Positions 7,033 through 38,002 are shown, numbered from the stretch's first letter. The stretch is DNA of 64,000 nucleotides from Candidatus Zixiibacteriota bacterium (GCA_036397555.1 DASWIS010000008.1:544206-608205); one strand, 5' to 3'. Numbers and translations: made by a program. Notes: a model not told the origin generated them from the letters alone.

Positions 7033-8037
7033 ATGATGAATCCCCTGCAACACATCCGCGAGCGGGCGCGACGGATCAAAGCGCGCATCGTCCTGCCCGA
7101 GGGGACCGATCCCCGCGTGATCATGGCCGCGCGATCGCTCGCGTCCGAAGAAATCGCGCAGGTCACGTTGCTGGGCGATGAACGCGCTGTTCGTCAAGCC
7201 GCCGAAGCCGAACACTTGTCTCTGCGCAAAGTGACCATCATCGATCCGGCGTTGTCGCCGCAATTGGCCGAGTATGCCGCCGAACTGCGCAAGCTGCGTC
7301 CCGACCAATTCCCGACCGACGACACGGCGCGCACACAAGCGGCCGACATCCTCTGGTATGGAGCGCTCATGGTGCGCACCGGCGCGGCCGATGGCATGGT
7401 CGGCGGTGCGGCGCACACCACCAGCGATCTGTTGCGCGCGGCGCTGCGGGTGGTCGGGCTGGCGCCGGGGATCAAGACCGTGTCGGGATACTTCTTCATG
7501 GTCTTCCCGCGATTCAACGACGAACTCAACAAGGTCTTCATCTTCGCCGACTCGGGTGTGGTGCCCGATCCCGATGCCGCGCAGCTTGCCGACATTGCGA
7601 TTTCCTCGGCGGGTGCGTATCGATTGCTCACCGGCGATGAACCGCGTGTGGCGCTGCTCTCGTTTTCGACCAAAGGCTCAGCGAAACATCCGATGCTCGA
7701 CAAGATCACCGAGGCGCTCTCGCTGATCCGTCGGCGCGATTCGGCGCTAATCTGCGATGGCGAGTTGCAGCTTGATGCGGCGCTTGTCCCCTCGGTGGCG
7801 CGCAGCAAAGACCCCGACGGCATGATTGCGGGCAAGGCCAATGTCCTGATCTTCCCCGACTTGAACTCCGGCAACATCGCCTACAAACTCGCCGAACGGA
7901 TGGCGGGCGCCAAGGCGGTCGGCCCGCTCTTGTCGGGTCTGGCCAAACCGGTCAACGATCTCTCGCGCGGCTGCTCCGCCGAAGACATCGTCAACGCCGT
8001 CGCCGTCGCCGCGGTGACCTCCCGGCCCGGGCGATAG
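7033..8037 (+). CDS. pta: phosphate acetyltransferase
   Basis: Full-length similarity to Pta (RIVLPEG..., SGN..AYK, C-terminal VNDLSRGCSAEDIVNAV). The start is taken at MMNPLQHIRERA. Confidence 0.85.
   Translation: MMNPLQHIRERARRIKARIVLPEGTDPRVIMAARSLASEEIAQVTLLGDERAVRQAAEAEHLSLRKVTIIDPALSPQLAEYAAELRKLRPDQFPTDDTARTQAADILWYGALMVRTGAADGMVGGAAHTTSDLLRAALRVVGLAPGIKTVSGYFFMVFPRFNDELNKVFIFADSGVVPDPDAAQLADIAISSAGAYRLLTGDEPRVALLSFSTKGSAKHPMLDKITEALSLIRRRDSALICDGELQLDAALVPSVARSKDPDGMIAGKANVLIFPDLNSGNIAYKLAERMAGAKAVGPLLSGLAKPVNDLSRGCSAEDIVNAVAVAAVTSRPGR
7949..8014 (+). repeat. direct repeat copy 1 (pta 3' end), matches 11583-11648
   Basis: 66 bp identical except for one mismatch to the downstream copy. 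Confidence 0.8.
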
Positions 8038-8112: not shown

Positions 8113-8128
8113 GTTAGGTTGACCTAAC
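8113..8128 (+). promoter_or_regulatory. palindromic operator-like site GTTAGGT-tg-ACCTAAC overlapping a -35 box
   Basis: Perfect 7+7 inverted repeat. Resembles the DtxR/IdeR iron-box half-sites TTAGGTTAG/CTAACCTAA. Confidence 0.5.
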
Positions 8129-8147
8129 AATCGTCTGGCGCTATGAT
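8119..8147 (+). promoter_or_regulatory. σ70-like promoter (-35 TTGACC, 17 bp spacer, -10 TATGAT)
   Basis: TTGACC at 8119-8124 and TATGAT at 8142-8147. Sits ~70 bp upstream of the OMP gene start. Confidence 0.5.
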
Positions 8148-8175: not shown

Positions 8176-8189
8176 TTAGGCGCACCTAA
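8176..8189 (+). promoter_or_regulatory. second palindromic site TTAGG-cgca-CCTAA in the 5'UTR
   Basis: Shares the TTAGG/CCTAA half-sites with 8113-8128. Lies ~30 bp upstream of ATG 8218. Confidence 0.45.
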
Positions 8190-8217: not shown

Positions 8218-9399
8218 ATGACGAGATCAGCAATCAGGATCGTTCTCCTGAGTTTTGGGCTGACGACAATGACCGCCGTACCGGTTGGCGCACAGTTGGC
8301 TCCGGGCAGCCGACCATCAGTTCCCGGAGGAATCTATGACAAACCCTACCTGCAGAATTACAGCGGTGGCATCGCGCTGGGAGGGTACATGGATCATGAA
8401 CTCTTCGTGCAGCCCGACCATTCGACCTTCGATCAGCACCGTTTCATTCCCTTCATCTTTGCCTCCCCGACCGAATACATTCATGTCACCGCGGAGATCG
8501 AATTCGAACACGGCGGGCTGGTGAAAGGAAGCGGCACTAGTGACGGCGAGATTAAGCTGGAGTTCGCCGTCATGGACTGGGTGATCAGCGATGCATTCGG
8601 ATTTCGCGGCGGGGTGATCCTGACCCCGCTGGGAAAGCTAAACCTCACCCACGACAGCCCCTTGCAGGACCTCACCAACCGTCCTCCGGTGTCGAGCCAA
8701 CTGATCCCGACTACGCTTTCGGAATCCGGGATGGGTGTGTTCGGCGTGTTGTACCCGGGCGATTGGGTCGTCGGCTACGAACTGTACGTCGTCAACGGTT
8801 TCAACGAGAAGATCATCACCGGCGCCGGCGATCTGCGTGTGCGCGGCGGGCGCGGCTCGCAGAAGAGCGACAACAACGAAAACAAAGCCGTCACGGGCCG
8901 TCTCTCGGCTTCGCCGATGCTGGGTCTGGATGTCGGCGTGTCCGCGCACAGCGGCACCTATGACCCCGCCGGTGAGCATCGACTGACCATCGCTGCGGCC
9001 GACTGGGACTGGCAACGCGGTCCGTTCCAGTTCCTCGGTGAGGCGGCCTTGGTGAATGCCGAGATCCCGTCCGCCGAACTGCGCCTCGCGCAGACCGGTT
9101 CAGCCGACATTACCCAACGCGGTCTGTATGCTCAGGCGAACTATCACTTCGGTTTCGGCACAATCCGGCGATACCCCGAAAGCGTCTTCACCAGTATCGT
9201 GCGCTGGGATTATGTCGACTTCAATGCCGACGCCTCCGGTGACGACACACAGCAGGCGACCGTGGGCTTGAACTTCCGTCCGGTCGAACGCAGCGTGGTC
9301 AAAGCCGATTACCGCTGGGGCTGGTCTCGCGGATCCGGGACCGAATCCTGGTCGAGGCCGGACAAGCTCTTCAGCTTCTCCGTCGCCACCTACTTTTGA
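8218..9399 (+). CDS. outer-membrane β-barrel (porin-like) protein, hypothetical
   Basis: Signal peptide MTRSAIRIVLLSFGLTTMTAVPVGAQ. β-strand-rich alternating pattern. C-terminal aromatic residue (..ATYF). Confidence 0.55.
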   Translation: MTRSAIRIVLLSFGLTTMTAVPVGAQLAPGSRPSVPGGIYDKPYLQNYSGGIALGGYMDHELFVQPDHSTFDQHRFIPFIFASPTEYIHVTAEIEFEHGGLVKGSGTSDGEIKLEFAVMDWVISDAFGFRGGVILTPLGKLNLTHDSPLQDLTNRPPVSSQLIPTTLSESGMGVFGVLYPGDWVVGYELYVVNGFNEKIITGAGDLRVRGGRGSQKSDNNENKAVTGRLSASPMLGLDVGVSAHSGTYDPAGEHRLTIAAADWDWQRGPFQFLGEAALVNAEIPSAELRLAQTGSADITQRGLYAQANYHFGFGTIRRYPESVFTSIVRWDYVDFNADASGDDTQQATVGLNFRPVERSVVKADYRWGWSRGSGTESWSRPDKLFSFSVATYF

Positions 9400-9440
9400 T
9401 CCTGAACCGACTGACCGTGAACCGGATCGATCCGATTCCG

Positions 9441-10481
9441 ATGACACGACGGCGCTTTGTCGCGCTCGGTGCGATGTCGGCCCTCGGCGCGCTGATCCCG
9501 GCGCCTCTTCGGCGGCTTGTCGAGATTCCCGGCGACAGGTACTCAGACCTTCTGTGGTCTATGGGGGGCTGGAACCTGATCGAGGTGCGCGCACACACTT
9601 CGGACGGGGCCGCCGCCGCGATCTCCGTGGCCAAGGACGCCATCCGGCAAATCGATCGGACCTTCTCGGTCTTCGACCGCCGTTCCAAACTCTCTCGGAT
9701 CAATCACGACCGTGGATGTCACGTAGCCATCGACGATCAATCCATTCTCAACGGCATCGCGGCGGCGCTGCGCTGGGCGTCGGCGTCGGCAGGTGCCTTC
9801 GACCCCACAGTCGAACCGCTCATGAGGCGCTGGGGATTTCGCGAAGGCATCGACCGCGCCGTCGACGGCAATCAATCATCGTCATGCGATCATCGGGCAA
9901 TCGAACTGGATCTGGCGCGGGTATGCCTGCGGCGCGAGACACCCCAATTGCAACTGGATTCGGGCGGCTGGGCGAAGGGATGGGCGGCCGGATTGGCCGC
10001 ACAGGCCGCGCTCCGCCACGGTGCGGTCGAGGCGCTGGTCAACTGCGGCGGCGATATCGCGCGTGCCGTTGCGCACGGCAACCCGGAGTGGACCTGCGGC
10101 ATACGCAACCCGGCGGGCACGCGGCACGAAATTGTAGCCCGGGTCCGCCATATATTCCCGGCCGCGGCGACATCGGGTGACTATGAAAACTACCGGCTCG
10201 ACGACCACAACAGGCGCATCGGCCATCTGATGGATCCCCGATCACGCCGACCGGCAATCACCGATTTGTTCTCGGCGACCGTCTTCGCTCATGATGCCCT
10301 CGCGGCCGATGCGATGGCGTCGGCGCTGTTTGTGATGGGCTCCGCCCGGGCCACGCGCTGGCTTTCGGCGCATCCAGATTTCGCGGCCGTTCTCATCACC
10401 GATGCCGATTCGGGCACTGGCCTCCGCATTCAGGCGATCGGTCCGATCGATTTGACCGCCGTGCCCTTGCCGCGCGGGTAA
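9441..10481 (+). CDS. apbE: FAD:protein FMN transferase (ApbE/Ftp family), TAT-secreted
   Basis: ApbE motifs FDPTVEPLMRRWGF, LDSGGWAKGWA, ATSGDYENY, HLMDPRS. Twin-arginine signal MTRRRFVALGAM. Confidence 0.85.
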   Translation: MTRRRFVALGAMSALGALIPAPLRRLVEIPGDRYSDLLWSMGGWNLIEVRAHTSDGAAAAISVAKDAIRQIDRTFSVFDRRSKLSRINHDRGCHVAIDDQSILNGIAAALRWASASAGAFDPTVEPLMRRWGFREGIDRAVDGNQSSSCDHRAIELDLARVCLRRETPQLQLDSGGWAKGWAAGLAAQAALRHGAVEALVNCGGDIARAVAHGNPEWTCGIRNPAGTRHEIVARVRHIFPAAATSGDYENYRLDDHNRRIGHLMDPRSRRPAITDLFSATVFAHDALAADAMASALFVMGSARATRWLSAHPDFAAVLITDADSGTGLRIQAIGPIDLTAVPLPRG

Positions 10482-10487
10482 AGACGC

Positions 10488-11081
10488 ATGAGAACCCCGG
10501 TGCCCATCCTCGTGATTTTGCTCGTTCCGATGTCCTGCCCGCGCGGATACGCGCAGGAGCCGACAGAAGACGAAATCGGTACTGTGCAGGTTCTCACTTC
10601 GGAGGAGCATGCCCTGGCGGCGATCTTTCCCGATGCCGATTCCGCTCATCCCGGCGTTATTGCCCTCGATTCCATCCGCCGTGAGGCGTTACGCGCGTTG
10701 CTGGGCCGACATGTGCGTGACTCCGCGTTCGTCTATTTTGATGTCTTTGCGCAGGGACGACGTGCAGGAACAGCCGTCATCGCCGAGGAACGCGGCAAAT
10801 ACCGCCCCATCACCTTCATGGCCGGCGTTGATACCGCGCTGCGAATCGTTGATGCCCGCGTGCTGGTCTACCGTGAGAGCCGGGGGGGAGAGGTGCAGCG
10901 CACGCGCTTTCTGAAACAGTATCGGGGCAAGTCCCTCAACGACCCGATCCGCATCAACCGCGACATCATCAACATCACCGGCGCGACCATCTCGGTCAAT
11001 GCGCTCAATGCCGGAATCCGCAAAGTCCTGGCGGTCGCGGCCCTCCTGCATCCGCCGGCAACGGGGGAGGGGGGGCCATGA
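10488..11081 (+). CDS. FMN-binding domain protein with flavinylation motif (TGATIS)
   Basis: Signal peptide. The C-terminal FMN_bind-like region DIINITGATISVNAL matches the [S/T]GA[T/S] ApbE target motif. Confidence 0.75.
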   Translation: MRTPVPILVILLVPMSCPRGYAQEPTEDEIGTVQVLTSEEHALAAIFPDADSAHPGVIALDSIRREALRALLGRHVRDSAFVYFDVFAQGRRAGTAVIAEERGKYRPITFMAGVDTALRIVDARVLVYRESRGGEVQRTRFLKQYRGKSLNDPIRINRDIINITGATISVNALNAGIRKVLAVAALLHPPATGEGGP

Positions 11082-11554
11082 CCCTGCCGCGGCTGCGCAC
11101 CTGGTCGCGTCCGTTACGCCTGCTGACACTGGCTTTCGTGGTCGTCGTGGCCTTGGGGTATGCGGTCGGGCTGGCGTTCATTGTCCACAACACCGCGGTT
11201 TCCCCATCAGGGATCGTCGATCACTACCACGGCAACGAAGACCGCATGAAATTCGGCAAATCGACGGGGGAGATGCTCGAAATCGTCCACAATCACCTGC
11301 TCGGCATGGGCATGCTGTTCTTCGCGGTCGGCTTACTCTACATCGCCGCCGACACCCCGCCCCCATGGAAAACCCTGATCCCCGTCGAAACGCTCCTGAC
11401 CCTCCTGTCGACCTTCGGCGGCCTGTGGCTGATCCGCGAGGGCCTGGCCTGGGCCAACTGGCTGGTCTTCCCCTCTTCCTTCCTGATGCTGGCCGGGTAT
11501 ATTGCCATGTGCACGACGGTGATCTGGAACTGCCTGACGCCGTCGTCGAATTAG
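11078..11554 (+). CDS. 4-TM membrane protein with conserved His (HYHG, HNH), hypothetical
   Basis: ATGA-coupled to the FMN-binding gene. Four hydrophobic helices. Confidence 0.5.
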   Translation: MTLPRLRTWSRPLRLLTLAFVVVVALGYAVGLAFIVHNTAVSPSGIVDHYHGNEDRMKFGKSTGEMLEIVHNHLLGMGMLFFAVGLLYIAADTPPPWKTLIPVETLLTLLSTFGGLWLIREGLAWANWLVFPSSFLMLAGYIAMCTTVIWNCLTPSSN

Positions 11555-11582
11555 CTTGGCCCATGTCGTACCGACTTGCCCG

Positions 11583-11670
11583 GTCAACGATCTCTCACGC
11601 GGCTGCTCCGCCGAAGACATCGTCAACGCCGTCGCCGTCGCGGCGGTGGCGTCGCGACCGGGGGGGGTAG
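11583..11670 (+). pseudogene. remnant duplicate of the pta 3' end (direct repeat copy 2)
   Basis: Encodes PVNDLSRGCSAEDIVNAVAVAAVASRPGG with no in-frame stop. An 8-G homopolymer sits where the pta stop would be. Confidence 0.7.
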
Positions 11671-11685
11671 CCGATTCGTGGATTT

Positions 11686-11702
11686 GTAGGGTGGGCTCTG
11701 CC
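11686..11702 (+). terminator. GC hairpin GGTGGGC-tct-GCCCACC followed by an A/T-rich tail
   Basis: Perfect 7 bp stem followed by atttacttaatt. Placed where the original pta terminator would be. Confidence 0.4.
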
Positions 11703-11719
11703 CACCATTTACTTAATTC

Positions 11720-12382
11720 GTGCGAGATATGGCAAGCCCTGACGAGAGTGCTTGTCCCGAGCGAAGTGGAGCGATCAGGGCCACGAACCCGCTGACGAAG
11801 GACTGCAGCGCAGGTGCAATGAAGAACACTGAACTCGTAGAGAAGACCGCCGAGCTGACTCCGCACAATCGAATACAATCGAACCGGCCGTGGTGGAAAG
11901 ACGCGAAGTTCTGGATCACTACTGTCGTGTCTTTGTTGGCAGTAGCCGTAGCGTTCGATGCTCGTGACAAGGCGCTTACTGTCAACGTAAGGCTGAACAA
12001 TCTCGTTGGTGAAGAGGGTAGGACATTGCTTGTCACAGAACTTGAGCAAACTCGACGACTCCTAATAAAGACCGAAGGGGCCATCTCAGATAGCATCGAA
12101 GCTGGTCGTAATCGTGCGGGTGCGAAAGGATTTGCGGGTGGCTCAGTTCATACGTATGAGATCAAGCGAGCATTGGAGCCTCTAAGAGAATTAGTGGAAG
12201 AAGAGTGGTTCGGATTGGATCGTCGTATAGCCAAACTCTTGGCCCAGATGGGACACAGCGCAGACTCGTTGAATCAAGTTGAATCACTGGTGGACTTGAA
12301 TCAAAGCTACGCCGAACTCAGGATACAAAAGGATTCTGTCTTGTGCGTGATTCAAGTAGCCATCGAACAGTCTGGGCAGTGA
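11720..12382 (+). CDS. hypothetical single-TM protein (lower-GC gene); start may be ATG 11819
   Basis: TM helix WWKDAKFWITTVVSLLAVAVAF. The C-terminal region is helical. GC is visibly lower than in neighbouring genes. Confidence 0.4.
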   Translation: MRDMASPDESACPERSGAIRATNPLTKDCSAGAMKNTELVEKTAELTPHNRIQSNRPWWKDAKFWITTVVSLLAVAVAFDARDKALTVNVRLNNLVGEEGRTLLVTELEQTRRLLIKTEGAISDSIEAGRNRAGAKGFAGGSVHTYEIKRALEPLRELVEEEWFGLDRRIAKLLAQMGHSADSLNQVESLVDLNQSYAELRIQKDSVLCVIQVAIEQSGQ

Positions 12383-14842: not shown

Positions 14843-15601
14843 GTGCCAGTATTGTCCGCGCGGAGCCGGGGGAATTCGATCACTCTTCAGATCATCATCT
14901 ACCTGATCGGAGCCGCGCTGGCCGATCTGTTCGGCGCGTGGCTCTTTCTTTTGCGCAAGCGTTGGGAAGCCGAGCCGTTACGATTGCTCATCGGCGCGGG
15001 CGCCGGGTTTCTGCTCGCGGTCGCGCTGCTGGAGATGGCCCCGCATGCAGCCGGAATGATCCCGACAGCGCCGGTCTGGCTGCTGGGCGGATTTCTGCTT
15101 GTTCATGTGGTCGAACACGTGGTACCGGCGCACTTCCACTACGGTCACGAGACCCACTCCGGGCTGCAGCCCCATGTCGGGGTCACCGCGACGGCCGGGT
15201 TGACGATCCATTCACTGCTCGATGGCGTGGCCATCGTGGCGGCGCTGCAGGCCGACAGTTGGCTGGGTGGGATGGTGTTCGCCGCGATGGTCTGGCACCG
15301 CATTCCCTCGGGATTCACGGTCGCATCCGTGGTACGCGCCGTTGGCGGATCACCCGGCAGCGCCATGCTGGCGGCGGGAGTCCTCGGTGTCGCCGCGGTC
15401 CTGGGCGGGCTGCTTTGGCTCGCGCTTCCGCAGGGACGGTGGCTTGGGGCGGCGCTGTCGGTGTCGGCGGGGTCGCTTCTGTATGTGGCTGCGACCGATC
15501 TGTTGCCCGAAGTCAATCGCCGACGCACGCTGCTGGCCCCGCTGGGCGTCGTCATCGGGGTCGGTGTCTACTATGTCATCCATCTGGGCTTCGGGCACTG
15601 A
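14843..15601 (+). CDS. zupT: ZIP family metal (zinc) transporter
   Basis: 8 TM helices with HSLLDG and HRIPSG motifs. The overlapping Arg-rich ORF 14827..15708 is rejected. Confidence 0.8.
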   Translation: MPVLSARSRGNSITLQIIIYLIGAALADLFGAWLFLLRKRWEAEPLRLLIGAGAGFLLAVALLEMAPHAAGMIPTAPVWLLGGFLLVHVVEHVVPAHFHYGHETHSGLQPHVGVTATAGLTIHSLLDGVAIVAALQADSWLGGMVFAAMVWHRIPSGFTVASVVRAVGGSPGSAMLAAGVLGVAAVLGGLLWLALPQGRWLGAALSVSAGSLLYVAATDLLPEVNRRRTLLAPLGVVIGVGVYYVIHLGFGH

Positions 15602-15674: not shown

Positions 15675-16388
15675 TTGGGTCGGCCAAAATCTGTGGAGGG
15701 CGAAGTGAAACGGACAATCTCGGTCTTCGTCATTTATGTGGGTGTCGCGCTGGTCTGTGGCTTCGGAGCAACAGTCGCGCAGGCATCGTTCTTTGGCCAG
15801 GTGACCACCGCGCGGATTCTCGAACGCGGCGTACAGGACGTCAGCGCCTTCGTCGGTTTCTACGAAGATGCGACCATGTTCTTCGGCCAGCTTCGGCGCG
15901 GTTTTTCTTCCAGCGTCGAGGGCGGTCTCCAGTTCGGTCTGCTCGACCCGGAGGTCGGCGATGTCGGACTTGCGGCGGGTGGCGACTTTAAGTTCGGGTT
16001 GATGGCATCGAAGCCGGGACAACCGCTCGACATGGCATTCGACATTCGCGGCGCCTATTTCAATCTTGATGCATTCAGCGTGGTCGAGTTGGGAGCATCG
16101 GCCATCCTGTCGCACCCCTACGTCCTGACCCAGGGCTCGACGTTGACCCCGTATGGAGCCGTCAATCTGCGGGTGGAGCATGTTTCCATCGACAATCAAC
16201 CCAATGCCGCCGCGCGCCGATACACGCCGGCACGCGCTCTGGCCAATGGCGGCGGTGACGACACGAGTTTGGAAATCAGCGCCATGGGCGGAGTCAAGTG
16301 GGACATCTCCGATCTGCTCGATCTGCTCGGGGAAATCGTCATCGATGACCAGCTCGGTCTGATCTTCGGCATCAATTTCAAGATTTGA
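15675..16388 (+). CDS. small outer-membrane β-barrel protein, hypothetical (possible GTG start ~15706 after GGAGGG)
   Basis: Signal peptide. β-strand pattern. C-terminal INFKI. Confidence 0.5.
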   Translation: MGRPKSVEGEVKRTISVFVIYVGVALVCGFGATVAQASFFGQVTTARILERGVQDVSAFVGFYEDATMFFGQLRRGFSSSVEGGLQFGLLDPEVGDVGLAAGGDFKFGLMASKPGQPLDMAFDIRGAYFNLDAFSVVELGASAILSHPYVLTQGSTLTPYGAVNLRVEHVSIDNQPNAAARRYTPARALANGGGDDTSLEISAMGGVKWDISDLLDLLGEIVIDDQLGLIFGINFKI

Positions 16389-21962: not shown

Positions 21963-22196
21963 TTGCAGAAAAACAACGTGGCCGATCGTCAATCCCAACC
22001 GCCCCGTTCCACCGGTCTGTATCGTCTCGGTCGGATTGTCCAGATTCTCGGCCTGATCATCGGGCTGGAGGCGCTCTTGGTCTTCGGCGCCGAACCAAGC
22101 GAAGGCCCGATGATCTATGTCACGTTGGCGGCGGTCGCCGTCTTTTACATTGGGCACTGGCTGGTCAAACGCAGCGGCGCGACGAAGGCGGAGTAG
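21963..22196 (+). CDS. small 2-TM membrane protein, hypothetical
   Basis: ORF with two hydrophobic helices. No similarity recognised. Confidence 0.35.
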   Translation: MQKNNVADRQSQPPRSTGLYRLGRIVQILGLIIGLEALLVFGAEPSEGPMIYVTLAAVAVFYIGHWLVKRSGATKAE

Positions 22197-22289
22197 AATT
22201 GGAGCATCGCGCGGTGGGGTACCAGTTCCCCAAGGCTTGCCGAAAGTACTCCGTAAAGGGCAGTCGGATCGATTGATCGGCAAAGAGTT

Positions 22290-22383
22290 CCAAGAGTCCC
22301 CAAGAAAGTGATGGACACAAGCGTCGCAACGCGCTACAACCATCGTGACGGGTTGACTTGCGCGCCACGTCCTTGAGCAAATC
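22290..22383 (+). repeat. imperfect direct repeat L (~80% identical to 24109-24204)
   Basis: Shares ccaaga..cccc-aagaaagtgatggacac..gcgctac..ttgcgcgcca..cttgagcaaatc with the helicase 5' region. Confidence 0.7.
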
Positions 22384-23643
22384 ATGGAACAAGAGATTGC
22401 CACTGAGTTGGAGAGTGCCGCGACGGATTCCGAATCTGATGAGGTCCGAACTAGACCTATTGTCCACAGATTCTCCACATTCCTCAGGGATCTTCTTGCT
22501 GCGACGTTTTGGACTTACCTGATTACCAAGCTCTTCGTGACAGATCTCGATGCATTGCTCGTTAATCGATTCATTCCTGCACAGTCATGGCTGACGGAGT
22601 TCAAGTTCTTCATCCTGCTAGCCGTGTATGCCGCACTACTGTTGATTGCTGGCGTCAAGCCAGTTCTAAGGTGGTCTCTCTACACGGTCCTGTTTCCAAT
22701 CATTGTACTCGCGTGGAAATTCCCAGTCTTCATCTTCAAGCGAGAAAAGTGGATGCTTTCGCTCGCAATGGCTGATGTTGCTTTCTCGTTCTTCAAATCC
22801 TTCCGGTTTAACGTCGTGATCACCGCACTCTTCCTGTGCTCCTTCGCCCTGGCGCTCGCTGCGGCAAGTCCGTGGCTTCTCTGGCCCGCGACGGTGGTCA
22901 TGCTGGCGACCCTGTCCGTGGTCTACTATCAGAGATTCAGGGTCATTTTCAAGCCTTCAGGGCTGTATCAAATGCATATCAAGGTATTTCGCGAGCTGCG
23001 AACGAGTGCGAGTAAATCCTTCGCTCTCGACGAGAGTATCAAGACTCTGTCCGTGGATCGACTGGATGAAGAGCAGATTCAGAAGCGGGTTGCCACACTA
23101 CAAACGCCGGTGCTGTTTAACAGGGTCTGTTGCTTCGTGGCGAAGAAGCTGAGAGACTATCAAAACAGTGGATTGAACATCATGTTGTATGGCATGACGA
23201 TTCTTTTCATGATAATTCTTACGACTCTTTCGTTTTCCGCGATAAACTTTGCCGTTTTCAAGATCAATGAAGGGCTATTCGAGTTCACGTACGATCCCAA
23301 CTACTTTACTTTTATCTTCTATAGTTTCAACAATCTACTCTTCAATTCAATCAGAGATCTTGGCCCTATCGGCATGTTGTCGCAGGCCGTATCGATGATC
23401 CAGTCGTTGTTTTCATTCTCTCTGGTGGCAATTCTTGTGACTCTCTTCTTCTCCTTACGCAATCAACGGTACACCGAGGAGCTCAACGAGGTCATTTCGG
23501 GGATGGAAACAGAGGGGCATGAGATGGAGCGCTTCATAATAGATGAGTACAGACTAGGTAGCATAGAGGAGGCCATGGCAGAACTTCAGAACGCAAAGGC
23601 AAGTTTCGCAAAATTCATCTACAAGATATCCGAGAGCCTCTAA
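22384..23643 (+). CDS. polytopic membrane protein (≥8 TM), hypothetical, in a low-GC island
   Basis: 419 aa. Acidic N-terminus, two TM bundles separated by a soluble linker. GC ~45-48% by eye. Starts immediately after repeat L. Confidence 0.6.
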   Translation: MEQEIATELESAATDSESDEVRTRPIVHRFSTFLRDLLAATFWTYLITKLFVTDLDALLVNRFIPAQSWLTEFKFFILLAVYAALLLIAGVKPVLRWSLYTVLFPIIVLAWKFPVFIFKREKWMLSLAMADVAFSFFKSFRFNVVITALFLCSFALALAAASPWLLWPATVVMLATLSVVYYQRFRVIFKPSGLYQMHIKVFRELRTSASKSFALDESIKTLSVDRLDEEQIQKRVATLQTPVLFNRVCCFVAKKLRDYQNSGLNIMLYGMTILFMIILTTLSFSAINFAVFKINEGLFEFTYDPNYFTFIFYSFNNLLFNSIRDLGPIGMLSQAVSMIQSLFSFSLVAILVTLFFSLRNQRYTEELNEVISGMETEGHEMERFIIDEYRLGSIEEAMAELQNAKASFAKFIYKISESL

Positions 23644-24108
23644 TTCGATCCGTTTGTAGCGCTTCACTATGTTGCAGTAATTCTTCTCGTCCACCGTCGA
23701 ATCGCTTGCCAAGGACTTACTCCCTAATTGGGTATGAGAACTCGATTCTGCAGATGTTTGTTTCCGGGGGCAATCAGAGGGCATGCTATGTGGTTTGTTC
23801 TGTATCTGCCTCCAGTTCGCCTCTTTGCTTCGCGCTCTGCAACAATTCTCGTAAAAGCCTTTCTGCCACATACTTTGCCGGTGTGACACCCGCTTGTGTT
23901 GACTTCGTGCCGAACTCGGAGGTGCACGTAACGGTGGCACTTCCAACACAGAATTCAGCGCGGTCCAGATGCGGCCCAAACTCTGTCACTACTGACTCAA
24001 ACTTTCGTCCATTGCTCAAGACGTCCTCCTGTGATTCCCGGTAACCCACACCATTGCACGATTCTCCGCATCTTGTAATCTGTCATCCCTCTTCATCAAT
24101 CTGAGGGG

Positions 24109-24204
24109 CCAAGATGTCCCCCCCAAGAAAGTGATGGACACGCGCCTCCCCCTGCGCTACCACCAGCGTGATGGGCTGGCTTGCGCGCCATGACACTTGA
24201 GCAA
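24109..24204 (+). repeat. imperfect direct repeat R, spans the helicase start codon
   Basis: Aligns to 22290-22383. Includes TTG 24181/ATG 24190 and codons TLEQI. Confidence 0.7.
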
Positions 24205-26517
24205 ATCCTCGAACGGCTGCGGCACGATCCCAATGTCGCGCATTGGCACACGCTTGAGGCGGCGGACGGGGTCTATGCCGATTTTCCTGCGAGTCTGGAC
24301 CCACGGCTGGCCGAGGCGGCGAAGCGACGGGGCATTCGGCGGCTCTATCGCCACCAAGCCGACAGCGTCGAGCAAGTCGCCGTCGGACGCAATGTGGTTG
24401 TGGTCACGCCGACTGCTTCAGGAAAGACCCTCTGCTACAATCTGCCGGTATTAAACGCGGTGTTGGCCGATCCCTCGGCGCGGGCGCTGTACCTGTTTCC
24501 GACCAAAGCGTTGGCGCAGGATCAAAAGTCCGAACTGCTTGGCTGGATCGAGGCGCTCGAGGCCGATATCAAGGCGCACACCTTCGATGGCGACACCCCG
24601 GCGATGGCGCGGCGCGCGGTCCGCATCTCCGGGCATGTCGTGGTCACCAATCCCGACATGCTGCACACCGGGATTCTGCCGCATCACACCAAATGGGTCA
24701 AACTCTTCGAGAATCTGCGCTTTGTCGTCATCGACGAACTGCACCACTACCGCGGCGTCTTCGGCTCGCATCTGGGCAATGTGATCCGGCGTTTGCTGCG
24801 CATTGCCCGGTTCTACAACGCCGATCCGCAATTCATCGCCTGCTCCGCGACCATCCACAATCCCGGCGAGCTGGCCGAACGGATCGTGGGCAGGCCCTTC
24901 ACCGTGATCGACCAAAGCGGCGCGCCGACCGCGCAGAAGCATGTGATCTTCTACAACCCGCCGGTCGTCAATGAGCCGCTCGGCATCCGTCGGTCGTCGC
25001 TTTCGGTTGCCAACCAATTGGCGGCGACATTCCTGACCAACCAAGTCTCAACCATCGTCTTCGCACGGATGCGTCGCTCCGTAGAAGTCATCCTCACATA
25101 TTTGCGTGAGCATCTGCGACGGGAAAAGCAGGACCCGAATCTGGTCGAGGGATACCGAGGCGGGTATCTCCCCAACGAACGACGCAGCATCGAACGCGGG
25201 CTGCGCGAGGGATCGATCCGCGGCGTGGTCTCGACCAATGCCCTCGAACTGGGAGTCGATGTCGGCGCGCTCGATGTGGCGATCCTGACCGGCTACCCCG
25301 GCACCGTGGCCTCGCTTTGGCAACAGATCGGCCGCGCCGGAAGGCGCTCCGGCTTGTCCGCCGCAATACTTGTCGCTAATTCCTCGCCGATCGATCAATT
25401 CCTGATGCGCAATCCCGAATACCTGATCGGCCGCTCGGTCGAGTCGGGCATTATCGATCCAACCAATCTTGTCGTGCTAATGTCGCACTTGAAATGCGCG
25501 GCATTTGAGCTGCCGTTCTCGGAGGACGACAAGTTCGGCGTAGACCACACCCTGCCGATGTTGCAATACCTTGAGCAGAACCGCGTCTTGACACGTTCGG
25601 CGGGGCGCTTCTTCTGGGCATCGGAGGTGTATCCCGCCGCCGAGGTCTCGCTGCGTTCGGCATCGCCGGAAAACTTCGTCATTCACAACAGTTCCGATGG
25701 CAACAAGATCATCGGCGAGGTCGACTATTTCTCCGCGCCCGTCTTCCTGCATCCCGAGGCGATATATCTGCATGGCGCCGAGCAATACCAAGTCGAGGAA
25801 CTCGACTGGGATGGACGGCGCGCGTATGTGAAATCAGTCGATGTCGAATACTTCACCGACGCCGAGACCAAGACCGACTTAAAGATTCTCACAGTCGACA
25901 AAGACCGCCGCACCCCCGATGCGCGCCTGTCCTGCGGTGAAGTTGCGTTGACCACGGTCGCGGTGCTCTACAAAAAGATTCGCTTCCACACGCACGAGAA
26001 TGTCGGCTCCGGGCAGATTCGTCTCCCCGAACTCGAGATGCACACGACTGCGTTTTGGATCGAGTTTCCTGAAAACGTCTTAGAGCGGCTCGATCTTCCG
26101 ATCGGCCAGACCGGCTCGGTCCTGCATGCTGCCGCCAACGCCTTGGGACAGATGGCGCCTTTGTGGGTGATGGCCGATCCGCGCGATGTCGGCGCGCTTT
26201 CACAGGTGCGCTCGCCGCGTTCGGGGCTGCCGACTCTGTACCTTTACGACAACATCCCCGGCGGAGTGGGATTCTCGCAGCGCATCTACGAAATGGCAGG
26301 CCAGCTCTTCACCGAGACCGCCAACATGATCGCCGCCTGCCCCTGCCGCAGCGGGTGCCCATCGTGCGTCGCACCCGAAATGGCAGTCGGCGCAACCGGC
26401 AAACGCGGCGCGGAGGCATTATTGCGTTTCGCCGCCGCTACCGCCGACCTCTCACTTGACCCGATCATCGATCAGCCGGTCGCCGAGCTCGCCGCCGATG
26501 AAGGCGGGATGGATTGA
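24181..26517 (+). CDS. DEAD/DEAH-box helicase with C-terminal Cys4 domain (MrfA/YprA-like, COG1205/DUF1998)
   Basis: Walker A TPTASGKT, DELH box, helicase C motifs (QQIGRAGRR). C-terminal CPCRSGCPSCV zinc motif. Possible starts are TTG 24181 or ATG 24190. Confidence 0.85.
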   Translation: MRAMTLEQILERLRHDPNVAHWHTLEAADGVYADFPASLDPRLAEAAKRRGIRRLYRHQADSVEQVAVGRNVVVVTPTASGKTLCYNLPVLNAVLADPSARALYLFPTKALAQDQKSELLGWIEALEADIKAHTFDGDTPAMARRAVRISGHVVVTNPDMLHTGILPHHTKWVKLFENLRFVVIDELHHYRGVFGSHLGNVIRRLLRIARFYNADPQFIACSATIHNPGELAERIVGRPFTVIDQSGAPTAQKHVIFYNPPVVNEPLGIRRSSLSVANQLAATFLTNQVSTIVFARMRRSVEVILTYLREHLRREKQDPNLVEGYRGGYLPNERRSIERGLREGSIRGVVSTNALELGVDVGALDVAILTGYPGTVASLWQQIGRAGRRSGLSAAILVANSSPIDQFLMRNPEYLIGRSVESGIIDPTNLVVLMSHLKCAAFELPFSEDDKFGVDHTLPMLQYLEQNRVLTRSAGRFFWASEVYPAAEVSLRSASPENFVIHNSSDGNKIIGEVDYFSAPVFLHPEAIYLHGAEQYQVEELDWDGRRAYVKSVDVEYFTDAETKTDLKILTVDKDRRTPDARLSCGEVALTTVAVLYKKIRFHTHENVGSGQIRLPELEMHTTAFWIEFPENVLERLDLPIGQTGSVLHAAANALGQMAPLWVMADPRDVGALSQVRSPRSGLPTLYLYDNIPGGVGFSQRIYEMAGQLFTETANMIAACPCRSGCPSCVAPEMAVGATGKRGAEALLRFAAATADLSLDPIIDQPVAELAADEGGMD

Positions 26518-37707: not shown

Positions 37708-38002
37708 CACGTACTCCTTTCGGGGCCCGAATAGCAAAACGGCCGTTTCCGGGACGGGAAACGGCGCGGTCTGAAGCGGCACGGCTGTCTGTCCGTACCG
37801 CCGCCTGGTCCGTTCCCTACGCCGGCATTACCCGGATCAGGTTCGAAGGGTGTTGTCTCAGGCCCCTTTGATGGGACCACCCCGCGAACACAGGCAAGTC
37901 CACAATAGAAAACTTCACGAGGCGACGCAAGCCGATTTGGGGTCAACGCTTCCCGCCCGTCACGGTGTCGGGTATATTGTCGTGCCCCACACGGTGATAA
38001 CG

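What the first reader, a model, noticed from the sequence alone, without database searches (positions are those of the whole stretch)
8218..11554. ApbE flavin-transferase module: a candidate periplasmic/extracytoplasmic flavin-based redox system, possibly metal-regulated
A TAT-secreted ApbE (FAD:protein FMN transferase) is followed by a secreted FMN-binding-domain protein carrying the flavinylation target TGATIS. Next comes an ATGA-coupled 4-TM protein with conserved histidines (HYHG, HNH; possible haem or metal ligands). An outer-membrane β-barrel precedes them. This resembles flavinylation-associated extracytoplasmic electron-transfer clusters, such as the ferric-reduction/EET modules of Listeria FmnB-PplA. 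Combined with the iron-box-like operators, an iron-starvation-induced ferric reductase or redox uptake system is a reasonable hypothesis. The TM partner is unassigned.
Basis: inference. Interest (0 to 1): 0.65.

Follow-up and report, generated by a model that had tools for sequence, protein, structure and literature searches.

The report
Iron-regulated porin–flavoprotein–membrane reductase operon
This is a real four-gene operon (outer-membrane porin, flavin-attaching enzyme ApbE, a secreted flavin-carrying protein and a small membrane protein of an unstudied family) that most likely reduces ferric iron in the periplasm under iron starvation, and whose three-gene core is widespread in marine and sediment bacteria but has not been described in the papers I could search.

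Summary
Window 8218-11554 encodes, on the + strand, a 16-stranded porin, a Tat-signal ApbE, a secreted FMN_bind protein with the flavinylation core TGAT, and an ATGA-overlapping 4-TM protein. The TM protein is not DUF4405 or cytochrome-b-like.

The porin–FMN_bind–TM triad is conserved in the same order in Zixibacteria, Flavobacteriia, Marinimicrobia and others (FMN_bind upstream in 65 of 68 loci, porin in 50 of 52). Five ~50%-identical porin+FMN_bind pairs were sampled. Two are followed by Aq_1264_TM and three by a non-homologous PepSY_TM, the known ferric-reductase-type partner. All five sit beside iron genes (FeoAB, ferritin, FTR1, imelysin).

In Zixibacterial relatives a DtxR-type repressor with Fe-type ligands flanks the operon. 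Its palindrome TTAGGN4CCTAA occurs only twice in the 64-kb window, on the operon's promoter.

Best reading: an iron-repressed periplasmic ferric-reductase module in which Aq_1264_TM replaces PepSY_TM as the membrane electron input. It is a new variant of a known kind. The function is inferred, not shown.

The parts
8114..8127 (.). Operator palindrome 1, TTAGGTTGACCTAA. It overlaps the -35-like hexamer TTGACC (8119-8124); the -10-like TATGAT lies at 8142-8147.
   Evidence: The same TTAGGN4CCTAA palindrome flanks the DtxR-like gene and precedes the porin gene in relatives L001/L002 and L004; L005 has one copy, between the DtxR-like gene and the porin gene.
8176..8189 (.). Operator palindrome 2, TTAGGCGCACCTAA, downstream of the -10-like element and upstream of the porin start codon.
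   Evidence: Together with palindrome 1 these are the only two matches in the 64-kb window.
8218..9399 (+). Outer-membrane 16-stranded porin (393 aa). It has a signal peptide, a C-terminal Phe, a long and strongly conserved L3-like loop (residues 136-167), and alternating Glu residues on strand 3 (EIEFEHGG).
9441..10481 (+). ApbE, the FAD:protein FMN transferase, with twin-arginine signal MTRRRFV. The ORF is open from a TTG at 9396.
10488..11081 (+). Secreted FMN_bind-domain protein (197 aa), the presumed ApbE substrate. Motif INITGATIS, with acceptor Thr167 encoded at nt 10986-10988.
11078..11554 (+). 4-TM inner-membrane protein (158 aa) of Pfam PF27139 (Aq_1264_TM). It is translationally coupled to the FMN_bind gene (ATGA). 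The invariant H71-x-H73 (nt 11288-11296) lies at the periplasmic start of TM2.
7948..8031 (+). Left copy of an 84-nt direct repeat, which is the 3' end of pta. It brackets the cassette.
11580..11663 (+). Right copy of the 84-nt direct repeat (92% identical): a non-functional duplicate of the pta 3' end just after the TM gene. A terminator-like hairpin follows at 11690-11706.

Best explanation
This is an iron-repressed operon for periplasmic reduction of ferric iron, feeding ferrous-iron uptake.

**Shown by sequence, structure prediction and comparison:**
- The operon encodes a 16-stranded outer-membrane porin, a Tat-signal ApbE, a Sec-secreted FMN_bind protein that keeps the acceptor Thr, and a translationally coupled 4-TM protein of family PF27139.
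- The porin–FMN_bind–TM triad is a conserved unit across several phyla.
- In close relatives the operon is flanked by a DtxR-type repressor gene and by TTAGGN4CCTAA palindromes. In this window those palindromes sit on the promoter.

**Inferred:**
1. When Fe2+ is plentiful, a DtxR-like repressor encoded elsewhere in the genome binds the two palindromes and blocks transcription.
2. Under iron starvation the operon is expressed. ApbE attaches FMN to Thr167 of the periplasmic protein.
3. The 4-TM protein supplies electrons to that FMN. The most likely route is oxidation of menaquinol at a periplasm-facing site built around the invariant H71-x-H73 with K61 and E65. A haem or metal bound by those histidines in an oligomer is the alternative.
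4. The reduced flavoprotein reduces Fe(III) species that enter through the dedicated porin.
5. The resulting Fe2+ is taken up by a separate transporter such as FeoB or FTR1, or here possibly the nearby ZIP protein.

Aq_1264_TM therefore plays the role that PepSY_TM haem proteins play in sister clusters.
For: **Gene identities.**

**Conserved unit.**
- The same four genes occur in Zixibacteria loci L001, L002, L004 and L005. Gemmatimonadales L007 has them in a different order.
- The triad occurs in Ulvibacter (L008), Marinimicrobia (L010) and L012.
- Among 80 metagenome loci, FMN_bind lies directly upstream of the TM gene in 65 of 68 loci with enough sequence, and the porin in 50 of 52.

**Iron link.**
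- The adjacent 166-aa DtxR-like gene in relatives keeps Met10, Cys102, Glu105 and His106 of DtxR.
- The palindrome with DtxR-type TTAGG/CCTAA half-sites is found only at this promoter in the window, and next to the DtxR-like gene and porin gene in relatives. The published DtxR consensus is TTAGGTTAGCCTAACCTAA (PMC7762939).
- The Marinimicrobia triad is convergent with P19-FTR1-ferritin.
- Five ~50%-identical porin homologues all precede an orthologous FMN_bind gene (40-47% identity where compared: L097-L099) and lie beside FeoAB, ferritin, FTR1/YHS or imelysin/DHOR.

**Role of the TM protein.**
- In those five loci the third gene is PepSY_TM three times and Aq_1264_TM twice.
- The two TM families are not homologous (hhalign probability 0.5%).
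- Porin and FMN_bind identities do not sort by TM type. This points to functional replacement.
- PepSY-like proteins are the proposed or characterised transmembrane ferric reductases of flavinylation clusters (PMC8238504; PMC11334425).
- The residues conserved in the close Zixibacterial relatives mostly lie toward the periplasmic ends of the helices, facing the flavoprotein. Family-wide, only H71 and H73 are invariant.
Against: - No experiment exists for any member. Ferric reduction, flavinylation and iron regulation are all inferred.
- The regulator gene is not in the window.
- The 14-bp palindrome is not the canonical 19-bp DtxR box.
- The TM protein has only two invariant histidines, two residues apart and at one membrane face. 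It cannot carry electrons across the membrane the way two-haem PepSY, MsrQ or DUF4405 proteins do, so its electron source is a guess.
- It has no detectable similarity to any solved structure.
- Menaquinol to FMN is thermodynamically uphill (my own knowledge of the redox potentials).
- In Flavobacteriia the neighbours are mostly housekeeping genes, and I found no Fur-box enrichment upstream.
- The flavinylation motif lacks the canonical Asp at -6. That substitution had only minor effects in one tested protein (PMC12052999).
- Only five porin homologues could be sampled for TM partner type.
Confidence: 0.55

Rival explanations
1. The flavoprotein is a ferric (or other) reductase, but Aq_1264_TM is not the electron input. 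It is either a membrane dock for the flavoprotein or a small metal permease that takes up the Fe2+ produced, using the periplasm-facing His-x-His/Glu/Lys site as the metal entry. Electrons would come from another carrier, such as a periplasmic or membrane-anchored cytochrome c.
For: - There are only two invariant His, both at the periplasmic interface, with no cytoplasmic-side ligands.
- In Flavobacteriia a membrane-anchored CxxCH protein (Haem_bd, PF14376) directly precedes the porin gene in 9 loci.
- His/Glu motifs are typical metal ligands.
Against: - The same porin+FMN_bind pair uses PepSY_TM, a haem reductase-type protein and not a permease, in sister loci. Dedicated Fe2+ transporters (FeoB, FTR1) are already encoded next door.
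- A 4-TM protein with few polar intramembrane residues is a poor permease candidate.
- Haem_bd is absent from the Zixibacterial, Marinimicrobial and FeoAB-linked loci.
Confidence: 0.2
2. The module handles a different extracytoplasmic redox task, with iron only as the regulatory signal. Candidates are manganese redox or uptake, repair of oxidised periplasmic proteins, or detoxification of quinones, oxygen radicals or NO.
For: - DtxR-family regulators also include Mn sensors.
- The anaerobe-clade loci L013-L016 sit beside hemerythrin/DUF1858/DUF2249/Rrf2 genes and a Psr-like oxidoreductase rather than iron transporters.
- The flavobacterial context is uninformative.
Against: - The regulator keeps the Fe-type Met/Cys/Glu/His primary site rather than the Asp/Glu of MntR (plus my own knowledge of DtxR/MntR selectivity).
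- Iron transport and storage genes recur beside the module in unrelated lineages.
- No candidate substrate-specific enzyme is encoded in the operon.
Confidence: 0.12
3. It is a flavin acquisition or trafficking system. The porin admits exogenous flavins, and the TM and FMN_bind proteins bind or transfer them for periplasmic flavinylation.
For: - L012 has the triad immediately after the riboflavin genes ribD-ribE.
- The anaerobe-clade loci carry an ECF-like NusG_II plus Hpre_diP_synt_I/CbiQ pair next to the TM gene. I read this pair, from memory, as resembling the flavin exporter of Listeria.
- The porin is weakly Porin_O_P-like, a phosphate-selective family.
Against: - An FMN_bind protein with an ApbE acceptor Thr is a redox carrier in every characterised case (PMC8238504, PMC12052999).
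- The iron-gene contexts and the Fe-type repressor are not explained.
- The conserved Glu residues that probably line the porin lumen argue for cation rather than anion selectivity (inference).
Confidence: 0.05
4. It is a dissimilatory extracellular electron-transfer conduit, with a porin–flavoprotein complex analogous to MtrAB porin-cytochrome complexes carrying respiratory electrons to extracellular Fe(III).
For: Flavinylated proteins and multihaem cytochromes are proposed to be interchangeable in some systems (PMC8238504). The porin is always co-encoded with the flavoprotein.
Against: - The barrel is a 16-stranded general-porin fold with an L3-type constriction loop. That is too narrow to sheath a 20-kDa protein.
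- There is only one FMN per protein.
- Regulation by an iron repressor and linkage to FeoAB and ferritin indicate assimilation.
- The module is common in aerobic marine Flavobacteriia.
Confidence: 0.04

Closest known systems
'PepSY-like' flavinylation-associated iron-reduction clusters (Meheust et al. 2021, PMC8238504; PepSY_TM relatives VciB of Vibrio cholerae and FoxB of Pseudomonas aeruginosa)
   Same: - ApbE, a secreted flavinylated protein and a small inner-membrane partner are encoded together.
- They are linked to iron uptake genes and to iron-responsive regulation.
- Sister loci found here (L097, L098, L100) carry a porin about 50% identical and, where compared (L097, L098), an FMN_bind protein 40-45% identical to the window's, together with PepSY_TM.
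   Different: - The window's membrane partner is PF27139, not PF03929 or PF16357, and has no detectable homology to them.
- It has only one His-x-His at the periplasmic face, instead of His ligands on both membrane faces.
- The flavinylated protein is FMN_bind rather than the DUF2271 typical of PepSY clusters.
- The outer-membrane component is a porin rather than a TonB-dependent receptor.
Listeria monocytogenes FmnB–PplA extracellular electron-transfer locus
   Same: An ApbE-family flavin transferase (FmnB) flavinylates a secreted FMN_bind protein (PplA) that reduces extracellular or extracytosolic Fe(III).
   Different: - The window's cluster has no Ndh2, EetA/EetB or DmkA/B.
- This is a Gram-negative envelope with a porin.
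- The protein has a single FMN_bind domain and is not a lipoprotein with two domains.
- Regulation is by an iron repressor, implying assimilation rather than respiration.
RnfG / NqrC subunits of the Rnf and Na+-NQR complexes
   Same: The FMN_bind fold, with covalent FMN on the Thr of [S/T]GA[T/S]. The window protein aligns with RnfG 7zc6_G across ITGATI.
   Different: - The RnfG NCBIfam score is far below its cut-off (26.6 against 102 bits).
- No RnfA-E or NqrA-F genes are present.
- The protein has a cleavable signal peptide rather than an N-terminal anchor.
- Its partner is a 4-TM protein unrelated to RnfD/E/A.
DUF4405, MsrQ-like and FezC flavinylation- or ferrosome-associated membrane cytochromes (Huang et al. 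2024, PMC11334425)
   Same: Small histidine-bearing membrane proteins encoded beside apbE and proposed to feed electrons to flavinylated proteins. FezC is modelled as a homodimer that binds haem b through conserved His.
   Different: - There is no Pfam hit to these families.
- The protein has four TM helices, not six.
- It has two invariant His at one depth, instead of four central His forming two haem sites.
- Haem binding by Aq_1264_TM is untested.
DtxR/IdeR iron-dependent repressor regulons
   Same: The operators have TTAGG/CCTAA half-sites overlapping the promoter. The regulator in relatives keeps the Met10/Cys102/Glu105/His106 primary site (consensus quoted in PMC7762939).
   Different: - The operator is a 14-bp palindrome with a 4-bp spacer, not the 19-bp consensus.
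- The regulator is 166 aa, has no SH3-like domain and lacks the ancillary-site residues.
- The regulator gene is absent from this window.

Membership tests
ApbE (FAD:protein FMN transferase, PF02424) | Significant match to the ApbE family model and to solved FAD:protein FMN transferases | tested here: met
   Pfam 186.5 bits, E 8.6e-55. PDB relatives 1vrm, 6nxi, 4xdt and 4ifu match at E 1e-23 to 6e-26.
ApbE (FAD:protein FMN transferase, PF02424) | Extracytoplasmic localisation signal | tested here: met
   The N-terminus from the ATG at 9441 reads MTRRRFVALGAMSALGALIPAP, a twin-arginine motif followed by a hydrophobic stretch. This is by inspection only; no signal-peptide predictor was available.
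ApbE (FAD:protein FMN transferase, PF02424) | Flavin transferase activity on the neighbouring protein | not testable with these tools
   Needs co-expression followed by in-gel flavin fluorescence or mass spectrometry.
ApbE substrate of the FMN_bind type (PF04205) | FMN_bind domain above the Pfam gathering score | tested here: met
   32.5 bits against a 22 cut-off, E 1.3e-7, residues 104-181.
ApbE substrate of the FMN_bind type (PF04205) | Acceptor Thr/Ser at the end of [S/T]-G-A-[S/T] | tested here: met
   T164-G-A-T167. It aligns with the ITGAT of RnfG 7zc6_G. Homologues keep it as SGAT or TGAT; one has SAAT.
ApbE substrate of the FMN_bind type (PF04205) | Conserved Asp at position -6 of the motif D-x-x-[S/T]-G-A-[S/T] (PMC12052999) | tested here: not met
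   The window has I-N-I-T-G-A-T, with Asp at -8 (RDIINITGAT). The same holds in most subfamily members. Asp-to-Ala had only minor effects in the one protein tested.
PepSY-like flavinylated system (Meheust 2021) | A PepSY_TM protein (PF03929 or PF16357) in the flavinylation cluster | tested here: not met
   No such Pfam hit in the window's TM protein. hhalign of the Aq_1264_TM profile against the PepSY_TM proteins of sister loci gives probability 0.5%. The window works like this system but is not a member.
Listeria-type EET locus | Membrane Ndh2 with EetA/EetB and DmkA/B beside FmnB and PplA | tested here: not met
   The operon holds only four genes. The flanking genes are pta, a hypothetical and rlmN.
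Rnf / Na+-NQR | RnfG or NqrC equivalog score, with the other complex subunits present | tested here: not met
   TIGR01947 scores 26.6 bits against a 102 cut-off. No other Rnf or Nqr genes lie nearby.
DUF4405 / MsrQ-like membrane cytochromes | Family model match and four conserved central His forming two haem sites | tested here: not met
   No Pfam hit at E<=0.1. Only H71 and H73 are invariant.
Aq_1264_TM (PF27139) | Match to the family model | tested here: met
   The 99%-identical protein P0001 and all homologues carry the precomputed PF27139 annotation. A profile built from the window protein and its relatives finds 538 representative clusters. This model is evidently absent from the local Pfam copy, so the window protein itself could not be scanned against it.
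16-stranded outer-membrane porins (Porin_O_P-like) | Signal peptide, 16-strand beta-barrel, C-terminal aromatic residue | tested here: met
   The AF2 model has 16 strands. Foldseek matches OmpT/OmpU/OmpC/OmpF/PorB/OprO with probability 1.0. The protein ends ...ATYF.
16-stranded outer-membrane porins (Porin_O_P-like) | Membership of the phosphate-selective Porin_O_P family specifically | tested here: inconclusive
   21.2 bits against a 20.9 cut-off, covering only residues 282-376. Only some homologues carry PF07396. The conserved Glu residues that probably line the lumen suggest a different selectivity (inference).
DtxR/IdeR regulon | Operator with DtxR-type half-sites overlapping the promoter, plus a cognate regulator | tested here: inconclusive
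   Two TTAGGN4CCTAA palindromes lie on the promoter. The same palindromes sit beside a DtxR-like gene in relatives. However, the operator is 14 bp rather than the 19-bp consensus, no regulator gene is in the window, and binding is untested.

The most novel reading that the evidence does not exclude
Aq_1264_TM would be a new class of membrane quinol dehydrogenase. It would be a 4-helix protein without the two-haem relay of PepSY, MsrQ or DUF4405 proteins. It would oxidise menaquinol at a periplasm-facing His-x-His/Glu/Lys site and pass both electrons directly to the covalently bound FMN of its partner. With the dedicated, probably cation-selective porin, it would form an unrecognised envelope-spanning Fe(III)-reduction and uptake route. 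That route would be widespread in marine Flavobacteriia, Marinimicrobia (SAR406) and sediment FCB-group bacteria, and so would bear on how abundant ocean heterotrophs obtain iron.
Probability: 0.25. Interest if true: 0.75.

Novelty: new variant of a known kind. Interest (0 to 1): 0.55.

Why it matters
Flavinylation-linked extracytosolic electron transfer has been catalogued with a fixed list of membrane partners: Nqr, Rnf, NapH-like, MsrQ-like, PepSY-like, DsbD, Nqr/Rnf-like, Ndh2/Eet, DUF4405 and FezC. This operon adds another partner, PF27139, which swaps with PepSY_TM in otherwise orthologous porin–flavoprotein modules. That gives a first functional hypothesis for a family of at least 538 sequence clusters.

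The three-gene core is very common in marine metagenomes. It occurs in Flavobacteriia and Marinimicrobia, groups for which non-siderophore iron acquisition is, to my knowledge, poorly understood.

If the ferric-reductase reading is right, it identifies a testable, iron-regulated reductive iron-uptake pathway in abundant environmental bacteria. It would also be a compact system (porin, ApbE, flavoprotein, 4-TM protein) for studying how electrons leave the quinone pool for a periplasmic flavin.

Tried and rejected
- **Pfam and NCBIfam scans of the TM protein.** No DUF4405, cytochrome b, NosR, Rnf or any other significant family; only sub-threshold noise.
- **Homology between Aq_1264_TM and PepSY_TM.** Rejected; hhalign probability 0.5%.
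- **MtrAB-like porin–flavoprotein conduit.** Rejected because the barrel is a 16-strand general-porin fold with a constriction loop.
- **Mn-responsive MntR reading of the regulator.** Disfavoured because the Met/Cys/Glu/His primary site is kept.
- **Search for a Fur, MntR or DtxR gene in the window.** None found.
- **Classical Fur-box scan upstream of the porin gene in about 55 loci.** No enrichment over background.
- **Neighbour-family census upstream of the triad.** Mostly flavobacterial housekeeping synteny (HMGL-like, LysE, 5'-nucleotidase), with Haem_bd in 9 loci, so it is weak evidence. The downstream neighbour set was listed but not scanned.
- **Metagenome scan with the broad alignment A2.** It failed because no stretch was conserved enough. 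It was rerun with the narrower A3, which biases the 80 loci towards Flavobacteriia-like sequences.
- **Literature.** No paper mentions aq_1264. No paper beyond the two Light-lab surveys combines ApbE, PepSY and flavinylation. Two Bacteroidetes iron-regulon papers (PMC10434189, PMC9478572) do not mention this triad.

Full report
**What is in the window**

Between 8218 and 11554 the + strand carries four tightly packed genes.

- **Gene 1, 8218-9399 (393 aa).** It has a signal peptide and ends in ...ATYF. The AlphaFold2 model, built on 52 homologues, has pLDDT 83 and 16 beta-strands, with a long loop carrying two short helices between strands 5 and 6. Foldseek matches classical trimeric porins (OmpT, OmpU, OmpC, OmpF, PorB, OprO) at E 1e-10 to 1e-12. 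Pfam gives only a borderline Porin_O_P hit.
- **Gene 2, ApbE.** Pfam scores 186.5 bits, and solved FAD:protein FMN transferases match at E down to 6e-26. From the ATG at 9441 it starts MTRRRFV, a twin-arginine motif.
- **Gene 3, 10488-11081.** It encodes a secreted FMN_bind-domain protein (PF04205, 32.5 bits against a 22 cut-off). Its TGAT (residues 164-167) aligns with the flavinylated ITGAT of RnfG 7zc6_G. The canonical ApbE motif is D-x-x-[S/T]-G-A-[S/T] (PMC12052999). Here the Asp at -6 is Ile and an Asp sits at -8, as in most members of this subfamily.
- **Gene 4, 11078-11554.** It overlaps gene 3 by ATGA and encodes a 158-aa protein. The model has pLDDT 84, four TM helices and a short periplasmic helix.

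**The membrane protein**

It has no significant hit in the local Pfam or NCBIfam copies. In particular there is no DUF4405, cytochrome b, NosR or Rnf match. Its homologues carry the precomputed annotation PF27139, 'Aq_1264_TM', a family for which I found no literature.

A profile search of 1.84 billion representative proteins finds 538 clusters at E<=1e-3, almost all stand-alone proteins of 150-190 aa. G52 and G27 are nearly so, and K61, E65 and Y50 are conserved in 75-80%.

The positively charged N-terminus places it in the cytoplasm. H-x-H then sits at the periplasmic start of TM2, just before the hydrophobic core. The residues conserved among the close relatives mostly lie toward the periplasmic ends of the helices.

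No solved structure resembles it, by fold or by profile.

**Conservation of the gene set**

- The same four genes occur in Zixibacteria MAG loci (L001/L002, L004, L005; partial in L003 and L006). A Gemmatimonadales MAG (L007) has them in a different order.
The porins and FMN_bind proteins are homologous, and the [S/T]GAT motif is kept.
- In 80 metagenome loci, FMN_bind lies directly upstream of the TM gene in 65 of 68 loci with enough sequence. The porin is present in 50 of 52.
- A more distant anaerobe clade (L013-L016) has TM, a ~370-aa protein ending in Phe, FMN_bind and ApbE. It lies next to an ECF-like NusG_II plus Hpre_diP_synt_I/CbiQ pair and Rrf2 regulators.

The triad is thus a conserved functional unit. 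ApbE is inside the operon only in some lineages.

**The iron link**

In the Zixibacterial relatives a 166-aa DtxR-family gene directly precedes the porin gene. It aligns with DtxR and keeps Met10, Cys102, Glu105 and His106. To my knowledge that is the primary site distinguishing Fe sensors from MntR.

A palindrome TTAGGN4CCTAA occurs upstream of the DtxR-like gene and between it and the porin gene in L001/L002 and L004. L005 has one copy, between the two genes. In the window the only two matches in 64 kb lie at 8114-8127 and 8176-8189. The first overlaps a -35-like TTGACC that pairs with a -10-like TATGAT. The second lies between that promoter and the porin start codon. The half-sites are those of the DtxR/IdeR consensus TTAGGTTAGCCTAACCTAA (PMC7762939), although the spacing differs. 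No DtxR, MntR or Fur gene is in the window.

Independently, the Marinimicrobia triad is convergent with P19-FTR1-ferritin.

**The swap that suggests a role for the TM protein**

The porin family is large, with 1144 hits. I looked up five homologues that are about 50% identical to the window's porin. Each is followed by an FMN_bind gene. In the three loci compared directly (L097-L099), that protein is 40-47% identical to the window's over its whole length, including the INRDIINITGATLSV segment.

| Locus | Third gene | Neighbouring iron genes |
|---|---|---|
| L097 | PepSY_TM | Rrf2-FTR1-YHS-ABC |
| L098 | PepSY_TM, then ApbE | two ferritins, FeoAB |
| L100 | PepSY_TM | imelysin, DHOR, ferritin |
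| L099 | Aq_1264_TM | FeoAB (divergent) |
| L101 | Aq_1264_TM | FeoAB (divergent) |

The two TM families are not homologous (hhalign probability 0.5%). Porin and FMN_bind similarity does not sort by TM type. This is non-homologous replacement within one module.

PepSY-like proteins are the proposed transmembrane ferric reductases of flavinylation clusters, and their characterised relatives (VciB, FoxB) reduce iron (PMC8238504; PMC11334425). The simplest inference is that Aq_1264_TM does the same job, connecting the periplasmic flavoprotein to a membrane electron pool.

**Proposed mechanism, with the status of each step**

- *Shown:* the gene identities, the conserved acceptor Thr, the conserved operon, the operator positions and the iron-gene neighbourhoods.
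- *Inferred:*
  1. Fe2+-DtxR represses the operon.
  2. Under iron starvation ApbE flavinylates Thr167.
  3. Aq_1264_TM reduces the FMN.
  4. The flavoprotein reduces Fe(III) that enters through the porin.
  5. Fe2+ is imported by FeoB, FTR1 or another transporter.

The electron source is the weakest step. With one His-x-His at the periplasmic interface and no cytoplasmic-side ligands, a two-haem transmembrane relay is excluded. Three options remain: a periplasm-facing quinol-oxidation site handing two electrons to FMN, a single interfacial haem or metal in an oligomer (FezC is a precedent for haem at a homodimer interface), or a mere docking role.

The porin's strand 3 reads EIEFEHGG and strand 4 reads GEIKLEYA, with invariant alternating Glu residues. 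By beta-strand periodicity these should line the lumen. This suggests cation rather than phosphate selectivity, but it is an inference.

**Comparison with known systems**

The module works like the PepSY-like class but fails that class's defining feature, a PepSY_TM gene. It is not the Listeria EET locus (no Ndh2, Eet or Dmk genes). It is not Rnf or Nqr (sub-threshold RnfG score, no other subunits). It is not a DUF4405 or MsrQ cytochrome system.

Neither flavinylation survey lists this TM family or this porin-containing architecture. Further searches found nothing else. I therefore rate it a new variant of a known kind.

**An insertion scar**

The last 84 nt of pta (7948-8031) are repeated at 92% identity at 11580-11663, immediately after the TM gene. 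A terminator-like hairpin follows. The whole cassette, including its promoter and operators, is thus bracketed by a direct repeat of the pta 3' end.

In relatives the operon sits elsewhere, with the DtxR-like gene attached. This looks like insertion of the cassette at pta, and it explains why the regulator gene is missing here.

**Limits**

- All functional claims are comparative.
- Only five porin homologues could be sampled for partner type.
- The 80 metagenome loci are biased towards Flavobacteriia-like sequences.
- Signal peptides were judged by eye.

Noticed in passing
window 7948-8031 and 11580-11663: An 84-nt direct repeat (92% identical) of the 3' end of pta brackets the whole porin-ApbE-FMN_bind-TM cassette. 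ORF 11556-11795 translates to a copy of the Pta C-terminus. This looks like an insertion scar and suggests the cassette moved here without its DtxR-like gene.
   Followed up: partly
window 14843-15601 (+) and 15675-16388 (+): A ZIP-family metal transporter (Pfam Zip, E 1.2e-22) lies 3.3 kb downstream of the operon. It is followed by a 237-aa protein with no family hit that may be a small outer-membrane protein. The ZIP protein could be the Fe2+/Zn2+ importer, but no TTAGGN4CCTAA operator lies near it.
   Followed up: partly
L008/L009 3645-4121 and eight other flavobacterial loci (e.g. L034, L039, L044, L095): A small membrane-anchored CxxCH protein (Pfam Haem_bd, PF14376) sits directly upstream of the porin gene on the same strand in 9 loci. 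It may be an extra redox partner of the triad in Flavobacteriia.
   Followed up: no
L013 4383-5977, L014 and L016 (anaerobe clade): A NusG_II protein plus a fused Hpre_diP_synt_I/CbiQ membrane protein immediately precede the Aq_1264_TM gene. From memory, these resemble the ECF-type flavin trafficking components of the Listeria EET locus. Rrf2 regulators and hemerythrin/DUF1858/DUF2249 genes flank the cluster.
   Followed up: no
L012 2495-4167: The riboflavin biosynthesis genes ribD and riboflavin synthase (Lum_binding) lie directly upstream of the triad. In this locus the FMN_bind motif is SAAT instead of SGAT.
   Followed up: no
L099 8344-9237 and L101 8243-9142: A conserved ~298-aa secreted protein with no Pfam family follows Aq_1264_TM in the two FeoAB-linked loci. 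No counterpart is annotated beside the window's operon; I did not run a search for one.
   Followed up: no
protein P0145 (340 aa): One representative protein joins the first two helices of Aq_1264_TM to an ApbE-like C-terminal part. It is either a true fusion or a gene-call artefact across adjacent TM and apbE genes.
   Followed up: no
L021, L027, L046, L053, L078, L092, upstream of the porin gene: A recurring AT-rich element of the form TTATTTA(T/G)AAT(T/A)ATT(C/T)TA appeared as the best (poor) Fur-box match in several flavobacterial loci. It might be a lineage-specific regulator site or only shared ancestry.
   Followed up: no
window 37796-37894 (-): A TPP riboswitch (Rfam RF00059, 63 bits). 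It is unrelated to the finding.
   Followed up: no
window 22001-24000: GC content drops to 0.51 against about 0.60 elsewhere. The region holds a 419-aa ORF (22384-23643) with no Pfam family, next to a DEAD/MrfA-type helicase (24181-26517). It may be foreign DNA.
   Followed up: partly
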